From an uncultured virus (IMG/VR IMGVR_UViG_3300010157_000035) (Duplodnaviria > Heunggongvirae > Uroviricota > Caudoviricetes), in the IMG/VR virus record IMGVR_UViG_3300010157_000035, positions 1-64,000 of that record: 64,000 nt of DNA; one strand, written 5' to 3'. The position numbers were made by a program, and so were the translations under genes. The first letter of the stretch is position 1. Every line of letters starts with the position of its first letter. The notes under the pieces were generated by a model. That model searched no databases and was not told the DNA's origin. It was given only the letters and a program-made list of their open reading frames with translations. Positions 8,343 to 37,490 of the stretch are shown in pieces.

Positions 8343-8432
8343 TGGCGGAGAGTGTGGGATTCGAACCCACGATAGTGTTGCCACTATGACGGTTTAGTAG
8401 ACCGTTGGTTTCAGCCGCTCACCCAACTCTCC
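8343..8432 (-). tRNA. tRNA-Ser(ACT), class II
   Basis: long variable arm, G73, stem ACGGT/ACCGT, loop CTACTAA. Confidence 0.9.
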
Positions 8433-14251: not shown

Positions 14252-14325
14252 TGGCATACCCCCAGAGACTCGAACTCCGACGAACGGTTTTGGAGACCGC
14301 TATGCTGCCATTACATCAGGGATAC
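14252..14325 (-). tRNA. tRNA-Trp(CCA)
   Basis: loop CTCCAAA, G73, CCA. Confidence 0.9.
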
Positions 14326-14330
14326 AAAAA

Positions 14331-14936
14331 CTACATCGTAGGACCATTTCCGTTCCTAAAACCTACTGCACCACCTTCTGCTTCAATTCGCTTGATCACG
14401 TCTTCAAACAAGATGGGTGCAAAATCAGTTTGCTCTACACAGACACAATGATAACGAACGTCGTTCTCATCACTGTATAAAACTTCTCCGGTTCTAGCAT
14501 CAACACCACGAGCCCGCTTGACACGGTTGGCATGCAAGTGTCCGTGAATGTTAACACCAAAACGACCAAGACTTTCTGCGTGAACAGGAATATGACTCAA
14601 GATCATACCATTCATCACATGGTATGCACGAAGTTCACGAAAATGTTCACGATAGTCGGCATCTTTGAAGATGTCATGATTACCACGGATCAACACCTTA
14701 TCACCGTTCAATCTATGCATAATACCCAAGGCCTTACGATTGATCACAACGTCACCCAAATGGTAGACCTTGTCTGTGGGCTTAACACGTTCGTTCCAGG
14801 CCTTGACCATGGCTTCGTCCATTTCTTCAGGACTATCCCACGGCCTTAACTTTGTAACACCGTCATTACGGGTGAAGCGGCAGACGCCGGTATGTCCGAA
14901 ATGCGTGTCGCTTACTAAAAATACACTAGGCATCAT
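14331..14936 (-). CDS. calcineurin-like metallophosphoesterase
   Basis: SDTHFGH, LGD, GNHD, HGHLH motifs. Confidence 0.9.
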   Translation of the reverse strand: MMPSVFLVSDTHFGHTGVCRFTRNDGVTKLRPWDSPEEMDEAMVKAWNERVKPTDKVYHLGDVVINRKALGIMHRLNGDKVLIRGNHDIFKDADYREHFRELRAYHVMNGMILSHIPVHAESLGRFGVNIHGHLHANRVKRARGVDARTGEVLYSDENDVRYHCVCVEQTDFAPILFEDVIKRIEAEGGAVGFRNGNGPTM

Positions 14937-15023: not shown

Positions 15024-15329
15024 TCAAGCAGTTAGCCAATATTCGTTTTTTTCCAGCACCAAACTTTCTGCTCCGTCGTGTTCATCAATACGGAAACGAT
15101 CTCCGGTTGAGACCCAATTGACCTCTAAGTCTTCTAATCCTCCGCAATAAACATCTGGATGCTTTAATTCCATATAGGTAAGAACTTTATCAAACGCTTG
15201 TTGTTCGACCCATTCCGCAATACTGGGATCGTAAAGCAATTCCTCATTACCGTGCCAGCTGTACCAACCAGCCCCATAACCGGGTGATACCAACACAGCC
15301 ACCTTGCCATCACGAATTAGTTTGTTCAT
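15024..15329 (-). CDS. hypothetical phage protein
   Basis: VAVLVSPGYGAGW and FRIDEHDGAE motifs; 101 aa. Confidence 0.75.
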   Translation of the reverse strand: MNKLIRDGKVAVLVSPGYGAGWYSWHGNEELLYDPSIAEWVEQQAFDKVLTYMELKHPDVYCGGLEDLEVNWVSTGDRFRIDEHDGAESLVLEKNEYWLTA

Positions 15330-15468
15330 TGTTCTTTACTTTTTTTACTGCTTCCATTTGAGCTATCATTGCGTCAACTTGCACACGGGCACGTTCGAGC
15401 TTGCGTTCAATTAAGGCCACACGCTCTTCGGGTGCTAAAAAAATTTTATCTTGTATTTTATTTTCCAT
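15310..15468 (-). CDS. small coiled-coil protein (52 aa)
   Basis: MENKIQDK...; first ORF after the attenuator terminator, GGAAGA SD. Confidence 0.55.
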   Translation of the reverse strand: MENKIQDKIFLAPEERVALIERKLERARVQVDAMIAQMEAVKKVKNNEQTNS

Positions 15469-15482
15469 ATTTTTCTTCCAAT

Positions 15483-15513
15483 AAAAAACCCCGGAATGTT
15501 CAGTTTCGGGGTT
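15483..15513 (-). terminator. intrinsic terminator (attenuator)
   Basis: AACCCCGAAA-CTGAACA-TTCCGGGGTT followed by a T run. Confidence 0.85.
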
Positions 15514-15538
15514 GTTGAATAAAAGTTAAAACTTACTG

Positions 15539-15643
15539 CTATTCAAAACCCACTCTACGATCTTCACAGCCATAGACCCATAAATCGGCTTGTCCAATTA
15601 CTGGGTTATTTCCTAAAGAAGGATGTAATTTATTAGTTTTCAT
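15539..15643 (-). CDS. putative attenuator leader peptide MKTNKLHPSLGNNPVIGQADLWVYGCEDRRVGFE
   Basis: ATG at predicted +1; 3' end complementary to the terminator 5' arm region. Confidence 0.65.
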   Translation of the reverse strand: MKTNKLHPSLGNNPVIGQADLWVYGCEDRRVGFE

Positions 15644-15649
15644 AGTAGT

Positions 15650-15678
15650 ATTATACATGGTTATTTATGATTTGTCAA
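15650..15678 (-). promoter_or_regulatory. consensus sigma70 promoter
   Basis: TTGACA-17 nt-TATAAT. Confidence 0.9.
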
Positions 15679-17008: not shown

Positions 17009-17101
17009 TTAGTTTTTCCTTATAAGAATGTGGACGTGTGCCCAACATATTATTTAGTGGTTTTACTGATACACAGTAATTTTTATCCACTCAAACAGTC
17101 G

Positions 17102-17126
17102 AAAAGAGACCCGCCGAAGCGGGTTC
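17102..17126 (-). terminator. intrinsic terminator after tmRNA
   Basis: ACCCGC-TTCG-GCGGGT then CTCTTTT. Confidence 0.8.
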
Positions 17127-17450
17127 TGGTAGTTTCTGTTACGAGGCATTTCCTGCCCTATCGCGGCGATTAAACTGCGAAAGATTCGGCTTTCACTGTG
17201 CGAGCAGAGAACTTGACGTTCTTACCAGAAACAGTTACTTCGCCTGTAGATGCTTTTGCATTTACTTGATTTGCTTGATTTACGGTCATCGCCTACCGTG
17301 CTGTCCACTCTGTTACTCTTTGCCCTGTCGAAAACCAAGTCATCCCCACCTAAATATACCCCATACACTTAGGTGGAGATGCCGGGAGTCGAACCCGGGT
17401 CCAGAACACTTTTCTCTTTGCTTCTTCCCTTACGGGCTTTACAGCAATAC
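17127..17450 (-). ncRNA. ssrA: circularly permuted (two-piece) tmRNA
   Basis: T-arm/acceptor 3' half CCGGGTTCGACTCCCGGCATCTCCACC (ends 17372) precedes 5' half GGGGATG (17347); G3:U70 Ala determinant; tag frame 17259-17170 AKASTGEVTVSGKNVKFSARTVKAESFAV*. Confidence 0.85.
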
Positions 17451-17456
17451 TTTTAT

Positions 17457-17780
17457 TTACCCATTTAATCTTGGCGCTAGGTCCTTATAACTTGCTACAC
17501 CCGACGCCACAGCACCAACTACAACTTGTTTGAATACATTTTCTCTGCCACGAGTTCTATAATAAGATGCCTTTTGTTTACTAGTTAAGAAAGCAACTCT
17601 CATTTCAAGTGCTCCAATGTCTGTGTTAGAATTTCCATATTTGGTTTCCGCTAAAAACGAAAGAGTTCTTTTATAAGTTTGTCCTTTCCAATTTTTCACG
17701 GGCCCTAATATCAGTTTCAAAGACTCAAACAGCTCTTTGTCTTCGCCATTGTTCCAAGTATATAGGTGTTTTCTTGCCAT
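17457..17780 (-). CDS. hypothetical protein
   Basis: ORF with AAGGA SD. Confidence 0.65.
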   Translation of the reverse strand: MARKHLYTWNNGEDKELFESLKLILGPVKNWKGQTYKRTLSFLAETKYGNSNTDIGALEMRVAFLTSKQKASYYRTRGRENVFKQVVVGAVASGVASYKDLAPRLNG

Positions 17781-17855: not shown

Positions 17856-17884
17856 AGTATAGCATAGTTGTCGAATCTTGTCAA
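17856..17884 (-). promoter_or_regulatory. sigma70-type promoter
   Basis: TTGACA-17 nt-TATACT. Confidence 0.8.
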
Positions 17885-17915
17885 CCATTTACTGTGGTTT
17901 CGACTAAATAATATT

Positions 17916-18392
17916 ATGCTACACAAACACCACATTGTCCCAAAATATTTAGGAGGCACAGATGATCCAAGTAATCTTGTTGATCTCACTGTAGACCAAC
18001 ATGCTGAAGCACATCGTTTGTTATACGAACAACACGGTAACTGGCAAGATTATGTTGCCTGGCAAGGATTAAGCAAACTTGATGCTAACTTTGATGCTGC
18101 CAAACAGTCAATGATCGAAGGTGGTAGAAAAGGTGCCGCAAGGTCTAACCTTCGTTGGAAGGATCCGATACAACGAGAATTAGCCAGTAAGAAGATGAAA
18201 GTAGTATGTGCCAATAGAGGCAAAACTTGGCAGGGCAAACTATACGAAATAACTCACCCAGATGGGACTGTGGAAACAGTTGAAGGATTACGCCAGTGGT
18301 GTGTAGACCGAGGCTATAATCCTAACAACTTTGGAAATGCTTGTTTGAGAGGTAGTGTAACCAATGGTGGATTTATGGTCCGCAGGGTCTAA
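17916..18392 (+). CDS. HNH homing endonuclease
   Basis: HHIVPK..GG.D...NL......H...H motif; opposite strand to its neighbours. Confidence 0.8.
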   Translation: MLHKHHIVPKYLGGTDDPSNLVDLTVDQHAEAHRLLYEQHGNWQDYVAWQGLSKLDANFDAAKQSMIEGGRKGAARSNLRWKDPIQRELASKKMKVVCANRGKTWQGKLYEITHPDGTVETVEGLRQWCVDRGYNPNNFGNACLRGSVTNGGFMVRRV

Positions 18393-25648: not shown

Positions 25649-26404
25649 TTAAGATTTCTTGAACACAGGAATAGGATTCATTTTGTGTAAACTACGAGCT
25701 TGTATAGCACGGAATTTTTCTAGATTAGCCACAAGTTCTGGCTCTGTGGATTGAATTTCTCCAAGATCCATACGCATAGCAACCTCAAGATCAGCATAGC
25801 TCATGCCCAGTTGATCTTCGTCAGTGCGTCCATCATCCCATAAGCCATCTGTGGGCGCCGCGTTGATAATATCATCTAGCACTCCTAGCTCACGTCCCAT
25901 TTGCCATACTTCTGTTTTGTAACAGTCAGCAATAGGACTAATATCCACGCCACCGTCACCATACTTGGTATAAAATCCTACACCAAAATCTTCAACTTTG
26001 TTGCCGGTGCCTACCACAAGTCCACTTACGCTTTGAGCAATTTGATACAAGGTAACCATACGTAGTCGACTGCGGCTGTTGGCCAATCCTAACAAGTTTG
26101 GATAAGTGGCTAACCGACTTTCAAACTCATCAAAGGTACTAGTTAAATCAATAATGTCGTGGCGCACATTATCAAAGTTCTGTGTCAACCAAACACCTTG
26201 TTGCAGACTGAGATCGTGTAAGTCGGGACGTTGACGTATAGGCATAGTTACTGCCACTGTGTGTAATCCAGTTCTAGCGCAGAGTGCGCTGACTACAGCA
26301 CTATCAATACCACCACTGATACCTACAACTAAGGATTTCATGCCGGCCTGTTCAGCATAGTCTCGAATCCAATCAGTAATACGATCTTGTAATGTTATAG
26401 GCAT
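25649..26404 (-). CDS. nadE: NH3-dependent NAD+ synthetase
   Basis: GISGGIDS, GFYTKYGDG, PTDGL, DEDQLG. Confidence 0.9.
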   Translation of the reverse strand: MPITLQDRITDWIRDYAEQAGMKSLVVGISGGIDSAVVSALCARTGLHTVAVTMPIRQRPDLHDLSLQQGVWLTQNFDNVRHDIIDLTSTFDEFESRLATYPNLLGLANSRSRLRMVTLYQIAQSVSGLVVGTGNKVEDFGVGFYTKYGDGGVDISPIADCYKTEVWQMGRELGVLDDIINAAPTDGLWDDGRTDEDQLGMSYADLEVAMRMDLGEIQSTEPELVANLEKFRAIQARSLHKMNPIPVFKKS

Positions 26405-27261
26405 CAGGTCCCCCATTCATTCTTAAAGAGTGGAACTTGTAGCCTGTCACTGTAACGAAGTCCGTGTTTCATTGCCAATAATGCTACATTACGATTGTTC
26501 ATAGCGTATACCGTTTCAACACCACCCACTGGCATTAGATAAACGTGTCCGGTAAAACCCGCCTTACGATATGCGGCGATAGCACACTCAGCATCTGCAA
26601 AGTCTTGTTCAGTGGCAATAACAAATTTTAAATATGCTGTGCCATATTCTTCATAGTCACAAACTACCTTGGGCAAGATGGCTTCTTCCCACTTTTCTCC
26701 ACTGCATGGCAGTTTGGCACTGACACTAAATGTAATCTCTCGCCAAAAGTCTCGGTCATGATGGTGTGCCCAGGTATGCAAATACGAAGCAAACTCTTTG
26801 GATATCTCTTGAGTGCCATTGGTTTCAAACGTAATTTCTTTAAGCCCTTGCATCTTGGGATGATCTAACAAATCTGGGTAAGCACGTTGCCAACCTAACA
26901 ACGGCTCACCACCTGTAATGACCAGGTGTTCATCACGCCATTCACCGTGTGGAAGTATTTCCATAATACGTTCTACAATGGCATCAGTTGTAAGCATTGG
27001 ACTTAGGTCTTTAAAACTAGGGTGCCAACTGGCATAACTGTCGCAACCCGTGCTTACTAATGGTAGTTCTTCATATCGATTATATAGATGTGCTACTTCA
27101 GCAAGCTCTTCGGCTTCTGCGCTCAACTCACCACGTGGCATGCCAAAGCCAGCGCATTTGAAGTTGCATCCAAACACACGCAAGAATACCGACGGCACAC
27201 CCATATAGCGTCCTTCGCCTTGCACTGAATAGAATAATTCTGCTATTTTTAATTTACTCAT
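26404..27261 (-). CDS. queE: 7-carboxy-7-deazaguanine synthase (radical SAM)
   Basis: ELFYSVQGEG, VFLR, CNFKC...CD, ITGGEP, ETNG. Confidence 0.85.
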   Translation of the reverse strand: MSKLKIAELFYSVQGEGRYMGVPSVFLRVFGCNFKCAGFGMPRGELSAEAEELAEVAHLYNRYEELPLVSTGCDSYASWHPSFKDLSPMLTTDAIVERIMEILPHGEWRDEHLVITGGEPLLGWQRAYPDLLDHPKMQGLKEITFETNGTQEISKEFASYLHTWAHHHDRDFWREITFSVSAKLPCSGEKWEEAILPKVVCDYEEYGTAYLKFVIATEQDFADAECAIAAYRKAGFTGHVYLMPVGGVETVYAMNNRNVALLAMKHGLRYSDRLQVPLFKNEWGT

Positions 27262-31747: not shown

Positions 31748-32497
31748 TCATCGAATAGTGATTCCACGTTGTATAAGATTTTCATGTTCTTGAACAATGT
31801 TGGACTTGTTACTCGGATCTAATTCTACGCCTAATCTCGGTGCAATAACAGTTTCAACGTAATCCCAGTGGGCCAATGGTGTTGGGTGCGAGTCGTTTTT
31901 GTTGTATCTATGACTGGTATGTATATTATGATTTTGTTGTCTAAATGTTTCAAGTGAAATGTCTAATAGACAATTGTTATCAATTTGAAATCCTTTATAT
32001 ATTTCCTCCAGCCTTGGATCATTTTTTATATCTGTTTCGGCATGAAATAAAGGAAATGCTGCAAAATGATAAGCAGAATATCCGACAGATTTACTGTGTA
32101 AATCAATCAACTGTATATAATCCATTGTGGTTTGAAAACGTTCCACTGGATGATAATAGTTAACAAAAAACTCTTTGCTTTTTAAAACAGCACTGCCTTG
32201 ATGTCGCCAATGGTTTGTTGGATCCTTGTTGGGCATAAGGTATGGCTCCTCGCTATAAAAACTCCAGCGATCAAAACTGGTCCACAGGACAATAACTACA
32301 TCCTGTGGACGTGCATGTTTTACAATAGATCTTGCAACAGTGGCATTGTCACATCCGCCTATGCCAACTCGAGAATAAGAATTAAATTCTCGTCCTAAAA
32401 TATCAGCCCAGGTGCTCCAGCAGTATGAGGTATAACTACAACCAGAAGCTAACAAGCGACTGTTTTTTATGCTCACGCAAACAGATCCTCGTCCCAT
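31748..32497 (-). CDS. SGNH/GDSL-like protein
   Basis: ASGCSYT, GGCDN, WTSFDR, DSHP. Confidence 0.6.
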   Translation of the reverse strand: MGRGSVCVSIKNSRLLASGCSYTSYCWSTWADILGREFNSYSRVGIGGCDNATVARSIVKHARPQDVVIVLWTSFDRWSFYSEEPYLMPNKDPTNHWRHQGSAVLKSKEFFVNYYHPVERFQTTMDYIQLIDLHSKSVGYSAYHFAAFPLFHAETDIKNDPRLEEIYKGFQIDNNCLLDISLETFRQQNHNIHTSHRYNKNDSHPTPLAHWDYVETVIAPRLGVELDPSNKSNIVQEHENLIQRGITIR

Positions 32498-32979
32498 TCA
32501 CGATGACCTTCGCGGAATGCCATGTTACTTTGTGTTTCGCGCACTTCTACACGATAGCACCATAAACGAGCAGCCTCACCAGGTCCCCACATCTCTGGAA
32601 TGTAAACACCGTTGACGTATTTGTAAAGCATATCACTGAGTCCTTCACACCCTAATCGAGGTAGCACTACAATCTTGGCCATATTCTTTTCTTGTAGTAA
32701 CTTAAATGTCTCCATCTCGGGATCATCTTGTGCCACAATAAGCGTGTGGTCAAACTGATCTTCTAGGGTTTTCTTTAGTTCTTTAAGTCCACCATAGTCG
32801 GCGGCCCAGTTACGCACATCCAGTTCGTTAGTTCCAAAATAGAACTTCATACTAAACGAATAACCGTGTATCAAGTTACAATGACTGTCTGCCCTCCATT
32901 GTCTATATGCACATGGAAATGCGTCGTGGTACTCTTTGGTACTAGTGTATTTGTAAACTACGGGATTTAATGTTGTCAT
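32473..32979 (-). CDS. queD: 6-carboxy-5,6,7,8-tetrahydropterin synthase
   Basis: CNLIHGY, DYGGLK, FDH, EVRET T-fold motifs. Confidence 0.85.
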   Translation of the reverse strand: MTTLNPVVYKYTSTKEYHDAFPCAYRQWRADSHCNLIHGYSFSMKFYFGTNELDVRNWAADYGGLKELKKTLEDQFDHTLIVAQDDPEMETFKLLQEKNMAKIVVLPRLGCEGLSDMLYKYVNGVYIPEMWGPGEAARLWCYRVEVRETQSNMAFREGHREWDEDLFA

Positions 32980-36746: not shown

Positions 36747-37490
36747 TTATCGTGGAGCAAAGTCCTGTTGCAGTTTAATGTTGTCAAAGAATTCTTTCTT
36801 TGTACCTGGATCTGTATTAAATGATCCTTGTAATACAGTTGTCTGCGTTAGACTTGAATGTGCCATAATGCCACGGTTTTCACAGCAACCATGTGTGGCT
36901 TGAATGTAAACACCGACGTTTTCTGAGTCTGTAGCTCGCATAATTTCACGGGCTATGTCGTTACACAGTTCTTCTTGTAGGGTTCCACGACGACTGCACC
37001 ACTGGGCAATACGTGTATATTTTGACAGTCCAATGAGTTTGTTGGCTGCAATGATTCCGATGTAGGCAACACCAGCCACAGGCTGATGATGATGGCTACA
37101 CATACTACGAAGCTCACTCCTAACCACCAACATACCTTCATAACGATCCGGGCTATCGTTTGGAAAAGCTGTTGCATCGGGTGCTGGTTCATATCTTCCT
37201 GCCATTATCTCATTAAAATACATCTTGGCCAGTCTACGTGCTGTGCCTTGGCTATTAGGATCCGTTTCTCGATCAATTAACAATCGGTCTAGCACTAGTT
37301 CAAATGCTTCTGCGGCTTCATCAATTAAGATTTCCTTATCACCTTCAAATAGGTAGTCACTGATGTTGTCACCGGCCCAAAAACGTTTCTTATCGCGCTT
37401 CATTGCAAAACGAATTGCGTCTCCAAGATAACCTTCTTCGTATTCCTTGGTATCCATCACATCCAGTGCTGTTTCATTTTTTTCTGTCAA
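36747..37490 (-). CDS. folE: GTP cyclohydrolase I
   Basis: SMCSHH, IGLSK, LQE, HGCCENRG. Confidence 0.95.
   Translation of the reverse strand: MTEKNETALDVMDTKEYEEGYLGDAIRFAMKRDKKRFWAGDNISDYLFEGDKEILIDEAAEAFELVLDRLLIDRETDPNSQGTARRLAKMYFNEIMAGRYEPAPDATAFPNDSPDRYEGMLVVRSELRSMCSHHHQPVAGVAYIGIIAANKLIGLSKYTRIAQWCSRRGTLQEELCNDIAREIMRATDSENVGVYIQATHGCCENRGIMAHSSLTQTTVLQGSFNTDPGTKKEFFDNIKLQQDFAPR

What the first reader, a model, noticed from the sequence alone, without database searches (positions are those of the whole stretch)
15483..15678. Candidate general translation-stress attenuator: leaderless 34-codon leader peptide containing all 20 amino acids
Seen: a consensus TTGACA-17-TATAAT promoter with ATG at the predicted +1 (15643), encoding MKTNKLHPSLGNNPVIGQADLWVYGCEDRRVGFE*, in which every one of the 20 amino acids occurs. 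Its last codons (GGGTTTTGAATA) can pair with TATTCAACAACCC, which overlaps the 5' arm of an intrinsic terminator (AACCCCGAAA...TTCCGGGGTTTTTT). Known: this is classical attenuator logic, where a ribosome reaching the stop allows termination and upstream stalling allows antitermination. Inference: rather than sensing one amino acid, the leader samples tRNAs for all amino acids, so loss of one (e.g. to a host anticodon nuclease) would induce the two downstream ORFs and read-through into the metallophosphoesterase and tRNA array. Caveat: those distal genes also have their own promoters (14964, 14215).
Basis: partly seen in the sequence, partly recalled or inferred. Interest (0 to 1): 0.85.

Follow-up and report, generated by a model that had tools for sequence, protein, structure and literature searches.

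The report
Ribosome-sensing switch before phage tRNA genes
A tiny gene translated from the very first bases of a phage transcript ends inside an RNA hairpin that competes with a transcription stop signal, and related lake phages keep this unit just ahead of their tRNA genes, so it probably ties tRNA output to how well ribosomes are working; its use of all 20 amino acids is a coincidence of this one variant.

Summary
These are a 12/12 sigma-70 promoter, an ATG at the predicted +1, a 34-codon ORF with all 20 amino acids, and pairing between the ORF's end and the 5' arm of a terminator.

I found 52 instances (38 unique) in lake-phage contigs.
- The ORF is open in 38 of 38 (31-35 codons). In the 37 aligned, the other two frames are closed.
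- In 37 of 37, a hairpin holding the last codons and the stop codon sequesters 4-8 nt of the terminator's 5' arm. The two states are nearly iso-energetic.
- A 52-59 aa helical-protein gene follows, usually then a metallophosphoesterase, then a same-strand tRNA array (10 of 10 loci with at least 1400 nt held). In two relatives no other promoter serves the first tRNAs.

All-20 coverage occurs in 1 of 37 variants (range 14-20) and fits chance.

Best reading: a ribosome-dependent attenuator at the head of a phage tRNA operon (about 0.58).

Weak points: the antiterminator shows conservation but no compensatory covariation, RNAalifold misses it, and neither transcription start nor translation was measured.

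The parts
15650..15678 (-). Sigma-70 consensus promoter: TTGACA (15678-15673), 17-nt spacer containing the conserved ATAAATAA, TATAAT (15655-15650). The TGA stop of the upstream 247-aa gene lies inside the -35 box.
   Evidence: 12/12 match. The promoter is present in 11 of 11 real loci found with the peptide alone, without asking for a promoter.
15539..15643 (-). Leaderless leader ORF: ATG at the predicted +1, 34 codons, TAG stop at 15541-15539.
   Evidence: The ORF is open in 38 of 38 unique relatives at 31-35 codons. In the 37 aligned, the two other frames are open in 0 of 37 and pN/pS is 0.58 outside the last 5 codons.
15578..15594 (-). Small internal hairpin AAUUGG-ACAAG-CCGAUU within codons 15-21 (a possible RNA polymerase pause hairpin; inference only).
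   Evidence: Predicted. RNAalifold on 32 sequences keeps a short version of it. It is deleted in variant L069, so it is not essential.
15539..15551 (-). 5' arm of the antiterminator: GGGTTTTGAATAG, the last four codons plus the stop codon.
   Evidence: The equivalent arm includes the stop codon in the eight variants whose structures were printed, one per sequence type. pS falls to 0.19 and pN/pS rises to 1.39 in the last 5 codons, which indicates an RNA-level constraint.
15509..15522 (-). 3' arm of the antiterminator: TTATTCAA-C-AACCC. Its last 5 bases are also the first 5 bases of the terminator stem.
   Evidence: 5 of 7 terminator-arm bases are paired to positions -6 to -10 relative to the stop; 91.1% of cells are paired, against 28-56% when the partner is slid.
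15483..15513 (-). Intrinsic terminator: stem AACCCCG / CGGGGTT, 13-nt loop, T6 run.
   Evidence: -9.9 kcal/mol here; -8.5 to -15.1 across 37 of 37; 96.4% paired, 13 cells with changes on both sides, 0 of 500 shuffles reach this.
15310..15468 (-). First regulated gene: a 52-aa protein of unknown function that starts 14 nt after the T-run. A model of the 57-aa counterpart in relatives is a two-helix hairpin.
   Evidence: a 52-59 aa gene sits at this place in 36 of 38 unique loci, and the other two hold under 170 nt downstream. One search gives the model of the 57-aa family. No Pfam or PHROG family matches.
15024..15329 (-). Second downstream gene, 101 aa, function unknown.
14331..14936 (-). Metallophosphoesterase, 201 aa. 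In this window it has its own promoter at 14992-14964.
   Evidence: Pfam PF00149 (E = 1.7e-5) and phrog_547 (E = 5.6e-49). A homologue lies downstream of the switch in 24 of 38 unique loci.
14252..14325 (-). tRNA-Trp (CCA), starting 5 nt after the phosphoesterase stop. It is the first gene of the tRNA array, which continues to about 8000.
   Evidence: tRNA-Trp is among the first three tRNAs in 21 of 26 loci that have any tRNA.

Best explanation
This is a ribosome-dependent (leader-peptide type) transcription attenuator at the head of a phage operon. The operon encodes a small helical protein, usually a metallophosphoesterase, and the first tRNA genes of the phage's tRNA array.

Proposed mechanism:
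1. A consensus sigma-70 promoter starts the RNA at, or one base before, an AUG, so a 70S ribosome must load on a leaderless 31-35 codon ORF.
2. The last four codons and the stop codon form the 5' arm of a hairpin. Its 3' arm contains the first 4-8 bases of the stem of an intrinsic terminator about 25-33 nt downstream.
3. If no ribosome has reached the end of the ORF when RNA polymerase transcribes the terminator (no initiation, slow decoding, or a stall before about codon 26), this antiterminator hairpin forms first. The terminator cannot form, and polymerase reads on into the operon.
4. If a ribosome has followed closely and sits at or near the stop codon, it holds the 5' arm open. The terminator forms, and a roughly 160-nt transcript is released.
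5. The net effect is that poor translation raises output of the phage tRNAs and their companion genes, and good translation lowers it.

Shown here: the anatomy, its conservation, the coding signature of the ORF, the near-equal energies of the two folds, and the synteny with tRNA arrays.

Inferred: the transcription start, translation itself, the ribosome geometry, the direction of regulation and the physiological signal.
For: 1. Family. The peptide alignment alone found 11 real loci, all carrying the promoter, ORF and terminator. A promoter-plus-ATG pattern found 15 viral and 36 metagenome loci. With the window that is 52 instances, 38 of them unique.

2. Coding. The ORF is open in 38 of 38 unique variants. 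In the 37 aligned, the other two frames are open in 0 of 37, with means of 4.4 and 3.4 stops. ORF lengths are 31-35 codons, so length differences are in whole codons. pN/pS is 0.58 outside the last five codons. Conserved residues use synonymous codons (alignment).

3. Leaderless starts are usual in this phage. Twelve strong promoter-like sites on the gene strand have an ATG or GTG 5-9 nt after the -10 that opens an ORF of at least 30 aa, including ORFs of 885, 336, 200 and 151 aa. The background at random positions is 8.5%.

4. Terminator. A hairpin followed by a T-run is present in 37 of 37. Covariation supports it: 13 cells changed on both sides, 0 of 500 shuffles.

5. Antiterminator.
- In 37 of 37, folding the RNA made before the terminator's 3' arm pairs the end of the ORF (positions -4 to -18 from the stop) with 4-8 bases of the terminator's 5' arm.
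- 91-93% of cells are paired, against 28-56% when the partner is slid.
- Divergent types keep the design with different sequences: GGGTG:CACCC with a UAA stop inside a different inner helix (type D), GGGTTCTC:GAGAACCC (L108), and a different terminator, AAGCCTCTAA, in type C.
- Cognate arms are more stable than swapped arms (-15.6 against -11.4 kcal/mol).
- The real ORF end beats shuffled ORF ends in 7 of 8 types (p <= 0.02).

6. Switch-like energetics. The terminator state minus the antiterminator state averages -1.2 kcal/mol (range -7.3 to +4.7). With a ribosome modelled at the stop, only the terminator forms in the eight printed variants.

7. RNA-level constraint on the last five codons: pS 0.19 and pN/pS 1.39.

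8. Output.
- A 52-59 aa gene follows in 36 of 38.
- A phosphoesterase follows in 24 of 38.
- A same-strand tRNA lies within 1400 nt in 10 of 10 loci holding at least 1400 nt, and 129 of 129 tRNAs are on the leader's strand.
- In L074/L125 tRNA-Trp starts 12 nt after the small gene.
- No other promoter-like site on that strand precedes the first 3-4 tRNAs in L125 and L130.
Against: - No compensatory (two-sided) change supports the antiterminator in the structure-aware alignment. There are 0 such cells, and shuffles do as well (230 of 500 for percent paired). The sequence alignment gives only 3 such cells. The helix is therefore supported by conservation, by one-sided G-U-compatible changes and by a few divergent lineages, not by statistics of covariation.
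- RNAalifold on the family returns only the terminator.
- The covariance model did not recover the two type-D sequences. The type-E hairpin is no better than shuffles (p = 0.23).
- The terminator state is the more stable one in 25 of 37, so strand displacement could let the terminator form regardless.
- The terminator is modest: a 7-10 bp stem with a 4-13 nt loop. The window's copy was missed by the consensus scan.
- There are no runs of any codon. The peptide is conserved more than a passive leader would need to be.
- The transcription start and translation are predictions. The one RNA library that held the stretch gave only contigs and showed nothing about transcript ends.
- In this window the phosphoesterase and the later tRNAs have promoters of their own.
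Confidence: 0.58

Rival explanations
1. This is an ordinary small-protein gene with its own strong promoter and a leaky terminator. The 31-35 aa peptide is the functional product, acting in trans. The hairpin over the stop codon is a stabilising 3' structure, or incidental, and downstream genes are expressed by constitutive partial read-through.
For: The peptide shows amino-acid-level conservation: W in 37 of 37, C and H in 36 of 37, and pN/pS 0.58. In the terminator state the inner hairpin and the terminator coexist as two 3' hairpins. The antiterminator extension has no covariation support. The terminator is modest, so leakiness is plausible. A trans-acting leader peptide has precedent in peTrpL (abstract start of PMC7298713, seen in the listing).
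Against: This reading does not explain why the outer 4-8 bp that overlap the terminator arm are kept in sequence types with different arms and even a different terminator. It does not explain why synonymous change is suppressed precisely in the last five codons. It does not explain why the two folds stay within about 1 kcal/mol on average. The two readings are not exclusive.
Confidence: 0.2
2. The attenuator is factor-dependent. A protein decides between the two RNA folds or modifies RNA polymerase at the strong promoter. Candidates are the 52-59 aa helical protein encoded just downstream (autoregulation), another phage protein, or a host factor. Translation of the ORF is not the signal.
For: The small helical-protein gene is linked to the switch in 36 of 38 unique loci. 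The layout of strong promoter, short terminated transcript and downstream operon resembles lambdoid PR'-6S RNA-tR' read by Q (recalled, not tested). Small phage proteins can act as antiterminators, for example gp39 of phage P23-45 (abstract start of PMC3351154, seen in the listing).
Against: The ORF's frame, length class and peptide are conserved, which a pure protein-RNA switch would not require. Two protein families with no proven relationship occupy the downstream slot (BLASTP E = 7.7, hhalign probability 17.8%). Antiterminator type does not track protein family: L071 has a type-B hairpin with the 52-aa family. No family or fold match was found for the small proteins.
Confidence: 0.12
3. 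One reading: the leader is built to contain every amino acid, so that loss of any one tRNA induces the operon.
For: The window's peptide does contain all 20. Family members are slightly more diverse than random 34-mers (mean 17 against 15.9 kinds).
Against: Only 1 of 37 unique variants has 20, and the range is 14-20. P = 0.002 per ORF with 232 comparable ORFs in the genome gives about 0.5 expected. Residues after about codon 26 could not signal by stalling, because a ribosome there would mask the antiterminator arm (geometry; inference).
Confidence: 0.04
4. The transcript is a non-coding small RNA of about 160 nt made from a strong promoter, and the ORF is fortuitous.
For: A promoter and a terminator bracket a short, well-folded transcript (z = -4.0).
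Against: The ORF is open in 38 of 38 unique variants, and in the 37 aligned the other frames are closed in 37 of 37. ORF lengths differ by whole codons (31-35), and third-position variation exceeds that at first and second positions (0.386 against 0.268 and 0.315). No Rfam family matches.
Confidence: 0.04

Closest known systems
Leader-peptide transcription attenuators of proteobacterial amino-acid operons (trpL, hisL, leuL, pheL; textbook knowledge, recalled)
   Same: A short translated ORF is followed by mutually exclusive antiterminator and terminator hairpins. A ribosome reaching the stop codon masks the antiterminator's 5' arm, so the terminator forms. Stalling upstream gives read-through.
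   Different: The element is phage-encoded. The start is leaderless rather than Shine-Dalgarno-led. There is no run of regulatory codons and no conserved 1:2 'protector' hairpin, so untranslated RNA should read through rather than super-attenuate. The peptide sequence is conserved. The output is tRNA genes, a phosphoesterase and a small protein, not biosynthetic enzymes.
Leaderless short-ORF attenuators of Actinobacteria: the polycysteine leaderless sORFs of mycobacteria (10.1101/834739, abstract read), and leader peptides of Corynebacterium glutamicum trp, leuA, ilvB and aroF (PMC3890552, passages read; the three-hairpin ilvBNC model of PMC11857589, search listing only)
   Same: A leaderless 5'-AUG sensory ORF is the first cistron of an operon, and ribosome progress on it sets downstream expression.
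   Different: By its abstract, the mycobacterial system uses a Cys-codon tract and acts on translation through ribosome-binding-site sequestration. Here there is no codon tract, the downstream element is an intrinsic terminator, the host type is proteobacterial, and the element is viral.
Attenuators that respond to general translation inhibition, for example Sinorhizobium trpL/peTrpL under tetracycline and uORF-controlled ARE-ABCF resistance genes (PMC7298713, PMC10201436, PMC12218461; search listings and abstract starts only)
   Same: Slowed or stalled ribosomes on a small upstream ORF switch an RNA structure. A leader peptide can also have a function of its own.
   Different: Those are cellular genes responding to antibiotics. 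None of the listed papers concerns a phage or tRNA genes.
pyrBI-type coupling attenuation in E. coli (recalled)
   Same: The read-out is how closely the leading ribosome follows RNA polymerase, rather than a specific amino acid.
   Different: In pyrBI a close ribosome prevents the terminator from forming. Here a close ribosome should allow it to form.
Lambdoid PR'-6S RNA-tR' late control by Q (recalled)
   Same: A very strong constitutive phage promoter produces a short terminated transcript, with the operon beyond the terminator.
   Different: That control needs a Q protein and a promoter-proximal pause site, and has no translated leader. I did not look for a Q homologue or a pause element.

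Membership tests
Leader-peptide (ribosome-dependent) transcription attenuators | A short ORF upstream of the regulated genes that is translated | tested here: met
   Comparative signature only. The ORF is open in 38 of 38 unique variants. In the 37 aligned, the other frames are open in 0 of 37, ORF lengths differ by whole codons, and pN/pS is 0.58. Translation itself was not measured.
Leader-peptide (ribosome-dependent) transcription attenuators | An intrinsic terminator between the leader ORF and the regulated genes | tested here: met
   A hairpin plus T-run is present in 37 of 37. Covariation supports it: 13 double-change cells, 0 of 500 shuffles.
Leader-peptide (ribosome-dependent) transcription attenuators | An alternative hairpin that shares bases with the terminator stem (mutually exclusive folds) | tested here: met
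   Present in 37 of 37 per-sequence folds, with 4-8 shared bases. The two states differ by -1.2 kcal/mol on average.
Leader-peptide (ribosome-dependent) transcription attenuators | The alternative hairpin is supported by compensatory evolution | tested here: inconclusive
   0 two-sided changes in the model-fitted alignment and 3 cells in the sequence alignment. RNAalifold does not predict it. Types D and L108 keep the pairing with other sequences.
Leader-peptide (ribosome-dependent) transcription attenuators | Ribosome position selects the fold: the antiterminator's 5' arm lies in or next to the end of the ORF | tested here: met
   The 5' arm consists of the last codons plus the stop codon in the eight variants printed, one per sequence type, and with a ribosome modelled at the stop only the terminator forms. 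In all 37 the terminator-arm bases pair to positions -4 to -18 from the stop. The functional dependence cannot be tested with these tools.
Leader-peptide (ribosome-dependent) transcription attenuators | Runs or enrichment of codons for the sensed amino acid(s) | tested here: not met
   There are no runs. W is invariant but single in 31 of 37 leaders. Codons read by tRNA-Trp, -Gly and -Cys make up 10.9% against 5.3% background, P about 0.09.
Leader-peptide (ribosome-dependent) transcription attenuators | An upstream 1:2 hairpin (pause or anti-antiterminator) | tested here: inconclusive
   The internal AUUGG/CCAAU hairpin occurs in most variants but is deleted in L069. It does not pair with the antiterminator arm.
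Actinobacterial leaderless sORF attenuators (mycobacterial Cys ribulon) | A leaderless start of the sensory ORF | tested here: met
   The ATG lies 6-7 nt after the -10 box in all 52 instances. That is by construction for the pattern searches, but it holds independently in 11 of 11 peptide-found loci. It is predicted, not mapped.
Actinobacterial leaderless sORF attenuators (mycobacterial Cys ribulon) | A polycysteine tract, with control by sequestering the downstream ribosome-binding site | tested here: not met
   Leaders have 1-3 Cys and no tract. The downstream element is a terminator with a T-run, and the ribosome-binding site lies after it.
Lambdoid Q-dependent late antitermination | A Q gene, a qut site and a sigma-dependent promoter-proximal pause | not tested
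   No search for Q homologues or pause elements was made. PHROG annotation of 53 ORFs in the window returned no antiterminator.

The most novel reading that the evidence does not exclude
The leader is a tRNA-supply sensor matched to its own operon. Its invariant Trp codon (37 of 37) and near-invariant Cys codon (36 of 37) lie at codons 22 and 26. By footprint geometry these are the last positions where a stalled ribosome would still leave the antiterminator arm free. The tRNA array that follows typically opens with tRNA-Trp, -Gly and -Cys (Trp is among the first three in 21 of 26 loci). If host Trp or Cys tRNAs are scarce, degraded during infection or cut by a host anticodon nuclease, ribosomes stall there, the terminator is bypassed, and the phage makes replacement tRNAs and the linked phosphoesterase. 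That would be a homeostatic, and possibly counter-defence, feedback on tRNA genes themselves. I found no account of such a control in print, in the searches.
Probability: 0.2. Interest if true: 0.88.

Novelty: new variant of a known kind. Interest (0 to 1): 0.72.

Why it matters
How phages control expression of their tRNA arrays is largely unknown. A conserved switch that couples tRNA transcription, together with a phosphoesterase, to the progress of a ribosome on a test ORF would give these arrays a feedback logic: make tRNAs when decoding falters. That would link them directly to host tRNA decay and to tRNA-cleaving defences.

It would also extend leader-peptide attenuation to viruses, to tRNA genes and to leaderless mRNAs in phages of proteobacteria-type hosts.

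The element is small (about 200 bp) and uses a consensus sigma-70 promoter, so it should be directly testable in E. coli or in a cell-free system. It could also serve as a portable sensor of translation status.

Tried and rejected
- Searches of 50,697 phage records with the 1.5-kb region (blastn) and with the 247-aa protein (tblastn) found nothing. The 101-aa protein has only distant hits of 31-44% identity.
- Rfam at E <= 1 found nothing at the element.
- Of 48 loci with relatives of the upstream 247-aa gene, 44 lack the element and only L002, L003, L032 and L043 carry it. The element is therefore not tied to that gene.
- nhmmer with the family profile found no second copy in the 130.6-kb genome.
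- RNAalifold gave only the terminator, plus a short internal hairpin on 32 sequences.
- Covariance model R1 was seeded with 25 of the 37 sequences. It recovered 35 of 37, missing L068 and L088, and the refitted alignment showed no two-sided changes.
- An RNA look-up found one metatranscriptome run (X20) holding 14% of the sampled words, and only as contigs. Five pieces were laid, none spanning the element, so they are uninformative on transcript ends or expression.
- A joint in DNA run X3 that skips 15514-15640 has only 28 letters on its shorter side and was laid at 85% likeness. I treated it as coming from another organism.
- The small downstream proteins have no Pfam or PHROG family. The only Pfam hits were weak, to sCache_like in 4 of 22 members and RNase_Zc3h12a in 1 of 22, which I did not take as meaningful.
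- The two small-protein families are not demonstrably related.
- The AlphaFold model of the 57-aa family is a two-helix hairpin (pLDDT 73) with no Foldseek match in the PDB. The protein Atlas gave no hit of 0.9 or more.
- Enrichment of leader codons read by the downstream tRNAs is weak: P = 0.09 for Trp/Gly/Cys and 0.15 for the wider set.
- The closest solved relative of the phosphoesterase is an uncharacterised Aquifex protein, 1xm7 (E = 3e-5), which does not help with function.
Full report
**What is in the window.**

The window is the first 64 kb of a 130.6-kb linear virus record with a CheckV completeness estimate of 38%. Genes near the finding lie on the minus strand. Reading that strand gives the following order.
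- A 247-aa gene ends with a TGA that lies inside TTGACA (15678-15673).
- A 17-nt spacer is followed by TATAAT (15655-15650), then ACTACT, then ATG at 15643.
- The promoter is the only 12/12 match between 8 and 24 kb.
- The ORF has 34 codons and stops at TAG 15541-15539. Its peptide contains all 20 amino acids.
- GGGTTTTGAATAG (15551-15539) pairs with TTATTCAA-C-AACCC (15522-15509). This pairing is part of the minimum-energy fold of the predicted transcript (-45.8 kcal/mol, z = -4.0).
- A hairpin AACCCCG...CGGGGTT with a T6 run ends at 15483 (-9.9 kcal/mol). The simple terminator scan did not list it, because its loop is longer than that scan allows.
- Then come a 52-aa gene, a 101-aa gene, a promoter (14992-14964), a 201-aa metallophosphoesterase and, 5 nt later, tRNA-Trp. 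A second promoter (14243-14215) and more tRNAs follow.

**Is 20 of 20 meaningful?**

With this genome's amino-acid composition, M plus 33 random residues contain all 20 kinds with P = 0.0021. Real 34-residue windows do so with P = 0.0006. The genome has 232 ATG-ORFs of 30-40 codons, so about 0.5 such ORFs are expected by chance, and one is seen. Among 37 unique relatives the count runs from 14 to 20 with a mean of 17, and only the window's variant reaches 20.

**Relatives.**

Public phage records hold nothing similar. Three searches of IMG/VR and JGI metagenomes did find relatives.
- Relatives of the upstream 247-aa gene gave 48 loci, but only 4 carry the element.
- Relatives of the 52-aa gene gave 5 loci, one of them with a different upstream gene.
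- A search with the peptide alignment alone gave 11 real loci and one spurious GC-rich hit. All 11 have the same promoter, leaderless ATG, ORF and terminator.

A promoter-plus-ATG pattern then found 15 viral and 36 metagenome loci. With the window that is 52 instances, 38 of them unique. One of these (L104) is cut 43 nt after the stop, so I left it out of alignment A3, which holds 37 sequences. The pattern searches require the promoter and the ATG, so for those loci the leaderless layout is true by construction. The 11 peptide-found loci are the independent check.

**The ORF is coding.**

- It is open in all 38 unique variants, at 31-35 codons.
- In the 37 aligned, the other two frames are open in 0 of 37, with 4.4 and 3.4 stops on average.
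- ORF lengths differ by whole codons (31-35).
- Third codon positions vary most (0.386 against 0.268 and 0.315).
- pN/pS is 0.58 outside the last five codons.
- Conserved residues are written with synonymous codons: Leu21 as TTA, CTA or CTG; Gly17 as GGA, GGC, GGG or GGT; Cys26 as TGT or TGC (alignment).
- W22 is invariant, and C26 and H7 are kept in 36 of 37.

The peptide is therefore selected as a peptide, more strongly than a passive leader would need.

In the last five codons the pattern reverses: pS is 0.19 and pN/pS is 1.39. Here the bases are conserved while the amino acids vary, which is what an RNA constraint predicts.

Leaderless starts also seem normal for this phage. Twelve strong promoter-like sites on the gene strand have an ATG or GTG 5-9 nt after the -10 that opens an ORF of at least 30 aa. 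These include the 885-aa ORF that overlaps the DNA polymerase gene, and ORFs of 336, 200 and 151 aa. The background at random positions is 8.5%.

**The two RNA folds.**

Every one of the 37 sequences has a terminator hairpin with a T-run (-8.5 to -15.1 kcal/mol). Covariation supports it: 96.4% of cells are paired, 13 cells are changed on both sides, and 0 of 500 shuffles reach this.

I folded only the RNA that exists before the terminator's 3' arm is made. In 37 of 37 this gives a hairpin whose 5' arm is the end of the ORF with its stop codon. Its 3' arm takes in 4-8 bases of the terminator's 5' arm.

Several sequence types keep this design with different letters.
- Type D uses GGGTG:CACCC, a different inner helix and a UAA stop.
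- L108 has a continuous GGGTTCTC:GAGAACCC helix.
- Type C has a different terminator (AAGCCTCTAA...TTAGGGGCTT) that still overlaps the hairpin.
- Type E has a UGA stop.

Further tests:
- Swapping ORF ends between eight type representatives weakens the fold (cognate -15.6 against non-cognate -11.4 kcal/mol).
- Shuffling the ORF end does worse than the real one in 7 of 8 types (p <= 0.02; type E p = 0.23).
- The antiterminator and terminator states differ by only -1.2 kcal/mol on average (range -7.3 to +4.7; the terminator is more stable in 25 of 37).
- With a ribosome modelled at the stop codon, only the terminator forms in the eight printed variants.

**Weak points of the structure case.**

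- On fixed columns the antiterminator is 91.1% paired, against 28-56% for slid partners, but it has only 3 two-sided changes.
- I built a covariance model from 25 of the 37 sequences and refitted 35 of them; the two type-D sequences were not recovered. In that alignment the helix is 92.6% paired with no two-sided change, and shuffles do as well.
- RNAalifold predicts only the terminator.

The antiterminator therefore rests on conserved complementarity, on one-sided G-U-compatible changes, on a few divergent lineages and on energetics. It does not rest on covariation statistics.

**What the switch controls.**

- A 52-59 aa gene follows the T-run in 36 of 38 unique loci. The other two hold less than 170 nt downstream.
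- These small genes fall into two families, 52 aa and 57 aa. I could not show that the two are related (BLASTP E = 7.7; hhalign probability 17.8%). They have no known family or fold match. A model of the 57-aa family is a two-helix hairpin.
- A homologue of the metallophosphoesterase follows within 1.1 kb in 24 of 38.
- tRNA arrays follow on the same strand. This holds in 10 of 10 unique loci holding at least 1400 nt downstream and in 25 of 34 holding at least 900 nt. All 129 tRNAs found lie on the leader's strand.
- In several relatives the array begins directly after the small gene. In L074/L125, tRNA-Trp starts 12 nt after it, followed by Gly, Cys and Leu.
- In L125 and L130 the consensus scan finds no other promoter-like site on that strand between the switch and these first tRNAs. 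By that scan they can only be transcribed through the terminator.
- In the window itself, extra promoters serve the phosphoesterase with tRNA-Trp and the later tRNAs.

**Mechanism proposed.**

The anatomy fits classical attenuation, minus the protector hairpin.
- RNA that is not being translated to its end folds the antiterminator first and is read through.
- A ribosome that follows the polymerase closely and occupies the stop codon keeps the 5' arm open while the terminator is made, so transcription stops.
- Because the mRNA is leaderless and has no codon runs, the signal is most simply the overall timeliness of initiation and decoding.
- Given the operon's content, the sense of the circuit is that more phage tRNAs, and the phosphoesterase, are made when translation is failing.

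All of this is inference from sequence. I put it at about 0.58.

The main rivals are:
- a small-protein gene with a leaky terminator (0.2; not exclusive with the attenuator reading, see peTrpL in the listing);
- a factor-dependent switch, perhaps using the small downstream protein (0.12);
- the designed pan-amino-acid sensor (0.04);
- a non-coding RNA (0.04).

**A bolder reading.**

The arrays usually open with tRNA-Trp, -Gly and -Cys. Trp is among the first three tRNAs in 21 of 26 loci that have any. The leader's invariant Trp codon and near-invariant Cys codon sit at codons 22 and 26. By footprint geometry these are about the last places where a stalled ribosome would leave the antiterminator arm free.

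Codons read by these three tRNAs are twice as frequent in leaders as in the phage's long ORFs (10.9% against 5.3%). For a single leader that gives P of about 0.09, and the wider tRNA set gives 0.15. A leader matched to its own tRNAs is therefore possible (about 0.2) but not shown.

**Comparison with what is known.**

- Leader-peptide attenuators of amino-acid operons share the logic, but not the leaderless start, the lack of codon runs, the viral setting or the tRNA output.
- Leaderless sensory ORFs are known in Actinobacteria. The mycobacterial polycysteine ORFs act on translation (abstract of 10.1101/834739). Corynebacterium has leader peptides for trp, leuA, ilvB and aroF (passages of PMC3890552).
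- Six full-text searches listed no paper that describes a phage-encoded leader-peptide attenuator, or attenuation of tRNA genes. I judged this from titles and abstract starts only, and papers outside the held library were not searched.
- Earlier notes of this scan, which I saw only after my own analysis, describe the same layout in other genomes. One covers what looks like this same family; others cover unrelated soil and T4-like phages. They are unchecked leads, but they agree with the reading here and suggest that the design recurs.

**Verdict.**

The attenuator interpretation is supported by comparative evidence and strengthened by the tRNA synteny. The 'all 20 amino acids' rationale is rejected. 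I rate the element a new variant of a known kind of regulator. It is conserved across dozens of uncultured lake phages, it is untested experimentally, and it should be easy to test.

Noticed in passing
window 17079-17469 (-): A phage-encoded permuted (two-piece) tmRNA lies 1.4 kb upstream of the switch. ARAGORN gives the tag peptide AKASTGEVTVSGKNVKFSARTVKAESFAV. Rfam matches are RF04321 (98.5 bits) and RF01850 beta_tmRNA (89.1 bits). A near-identical one sits upstream of the element in L073. Two-piece tmRNAs are known in aquatic phages (PMC9004378, passages read). Together with the tRNAs and the switch, this makes the region a translation-support island.
   Followed up: partly
G000 whole record; for example window 21853, 27489, 51168 and 1965 (-): Many strong sigma-70-like promoters have an ATG 5-8 nt after the -10 box that opens long ORFs (885, 336, 200 and 151 aa). 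Leaderless mRNAs therefore look like a general expression strategy of this phage.
   Followed up: partly
G000 C1 113322, 111787, 111447 and window 1700 (-): Four promoters (TTGACC-17-TATAAT) are each followed by the same 5' leader, acttgtatagaaactaaaaaggag, before the start codon. This is a repeated promoter-plus-UTR cassette.
   Followed up: no
window 6226 and 6171 (-): Two identical promoter-like units (TTGACA tagtgatgtctttactg TAGAAT atactacagaacgcc) lie 55 nt apart, a tandem duplication.
   Followed up: no
window 17868-18392 (+): An HNH or homing endonuclease gene (phrog_655, E = 1.3e-17) lies on the opposite strand within the otherwise minus-strand tRNA/tmRNA region.
   Followed up: no
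window 26404-27258, 32473-32976 and 36747-37487 (-): QueE-like, QueD-like and GTP cyclohydrolase genes (a 7-deazaguanine pathway) occur alongside several radical-SAM and sugar-nucleotide enzymes.
   Followed up: no
window 15514-15640, DNA run X3: One high-depth contig (depth 100) joins 15513 to 15641, skipping the whole leader ORF. Its shorter side has only 28 letters and it was laid at 85% likeness. It may be a relative with the promoter joined directly to a similar terminator, or a different organism.
   Followed up: no
window 8343-8432 (-) and relatives L120, L122-L125, L130, L132: A tRNA-Ser with the unusual anticodon ACT (A at the wobble position) recurs in the arrays of several related phages. 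L122 has a tRNA-Phe with anticodon AAA, and L123 and L130 have a tRNA-Leu with AAG.
   Followed up: no
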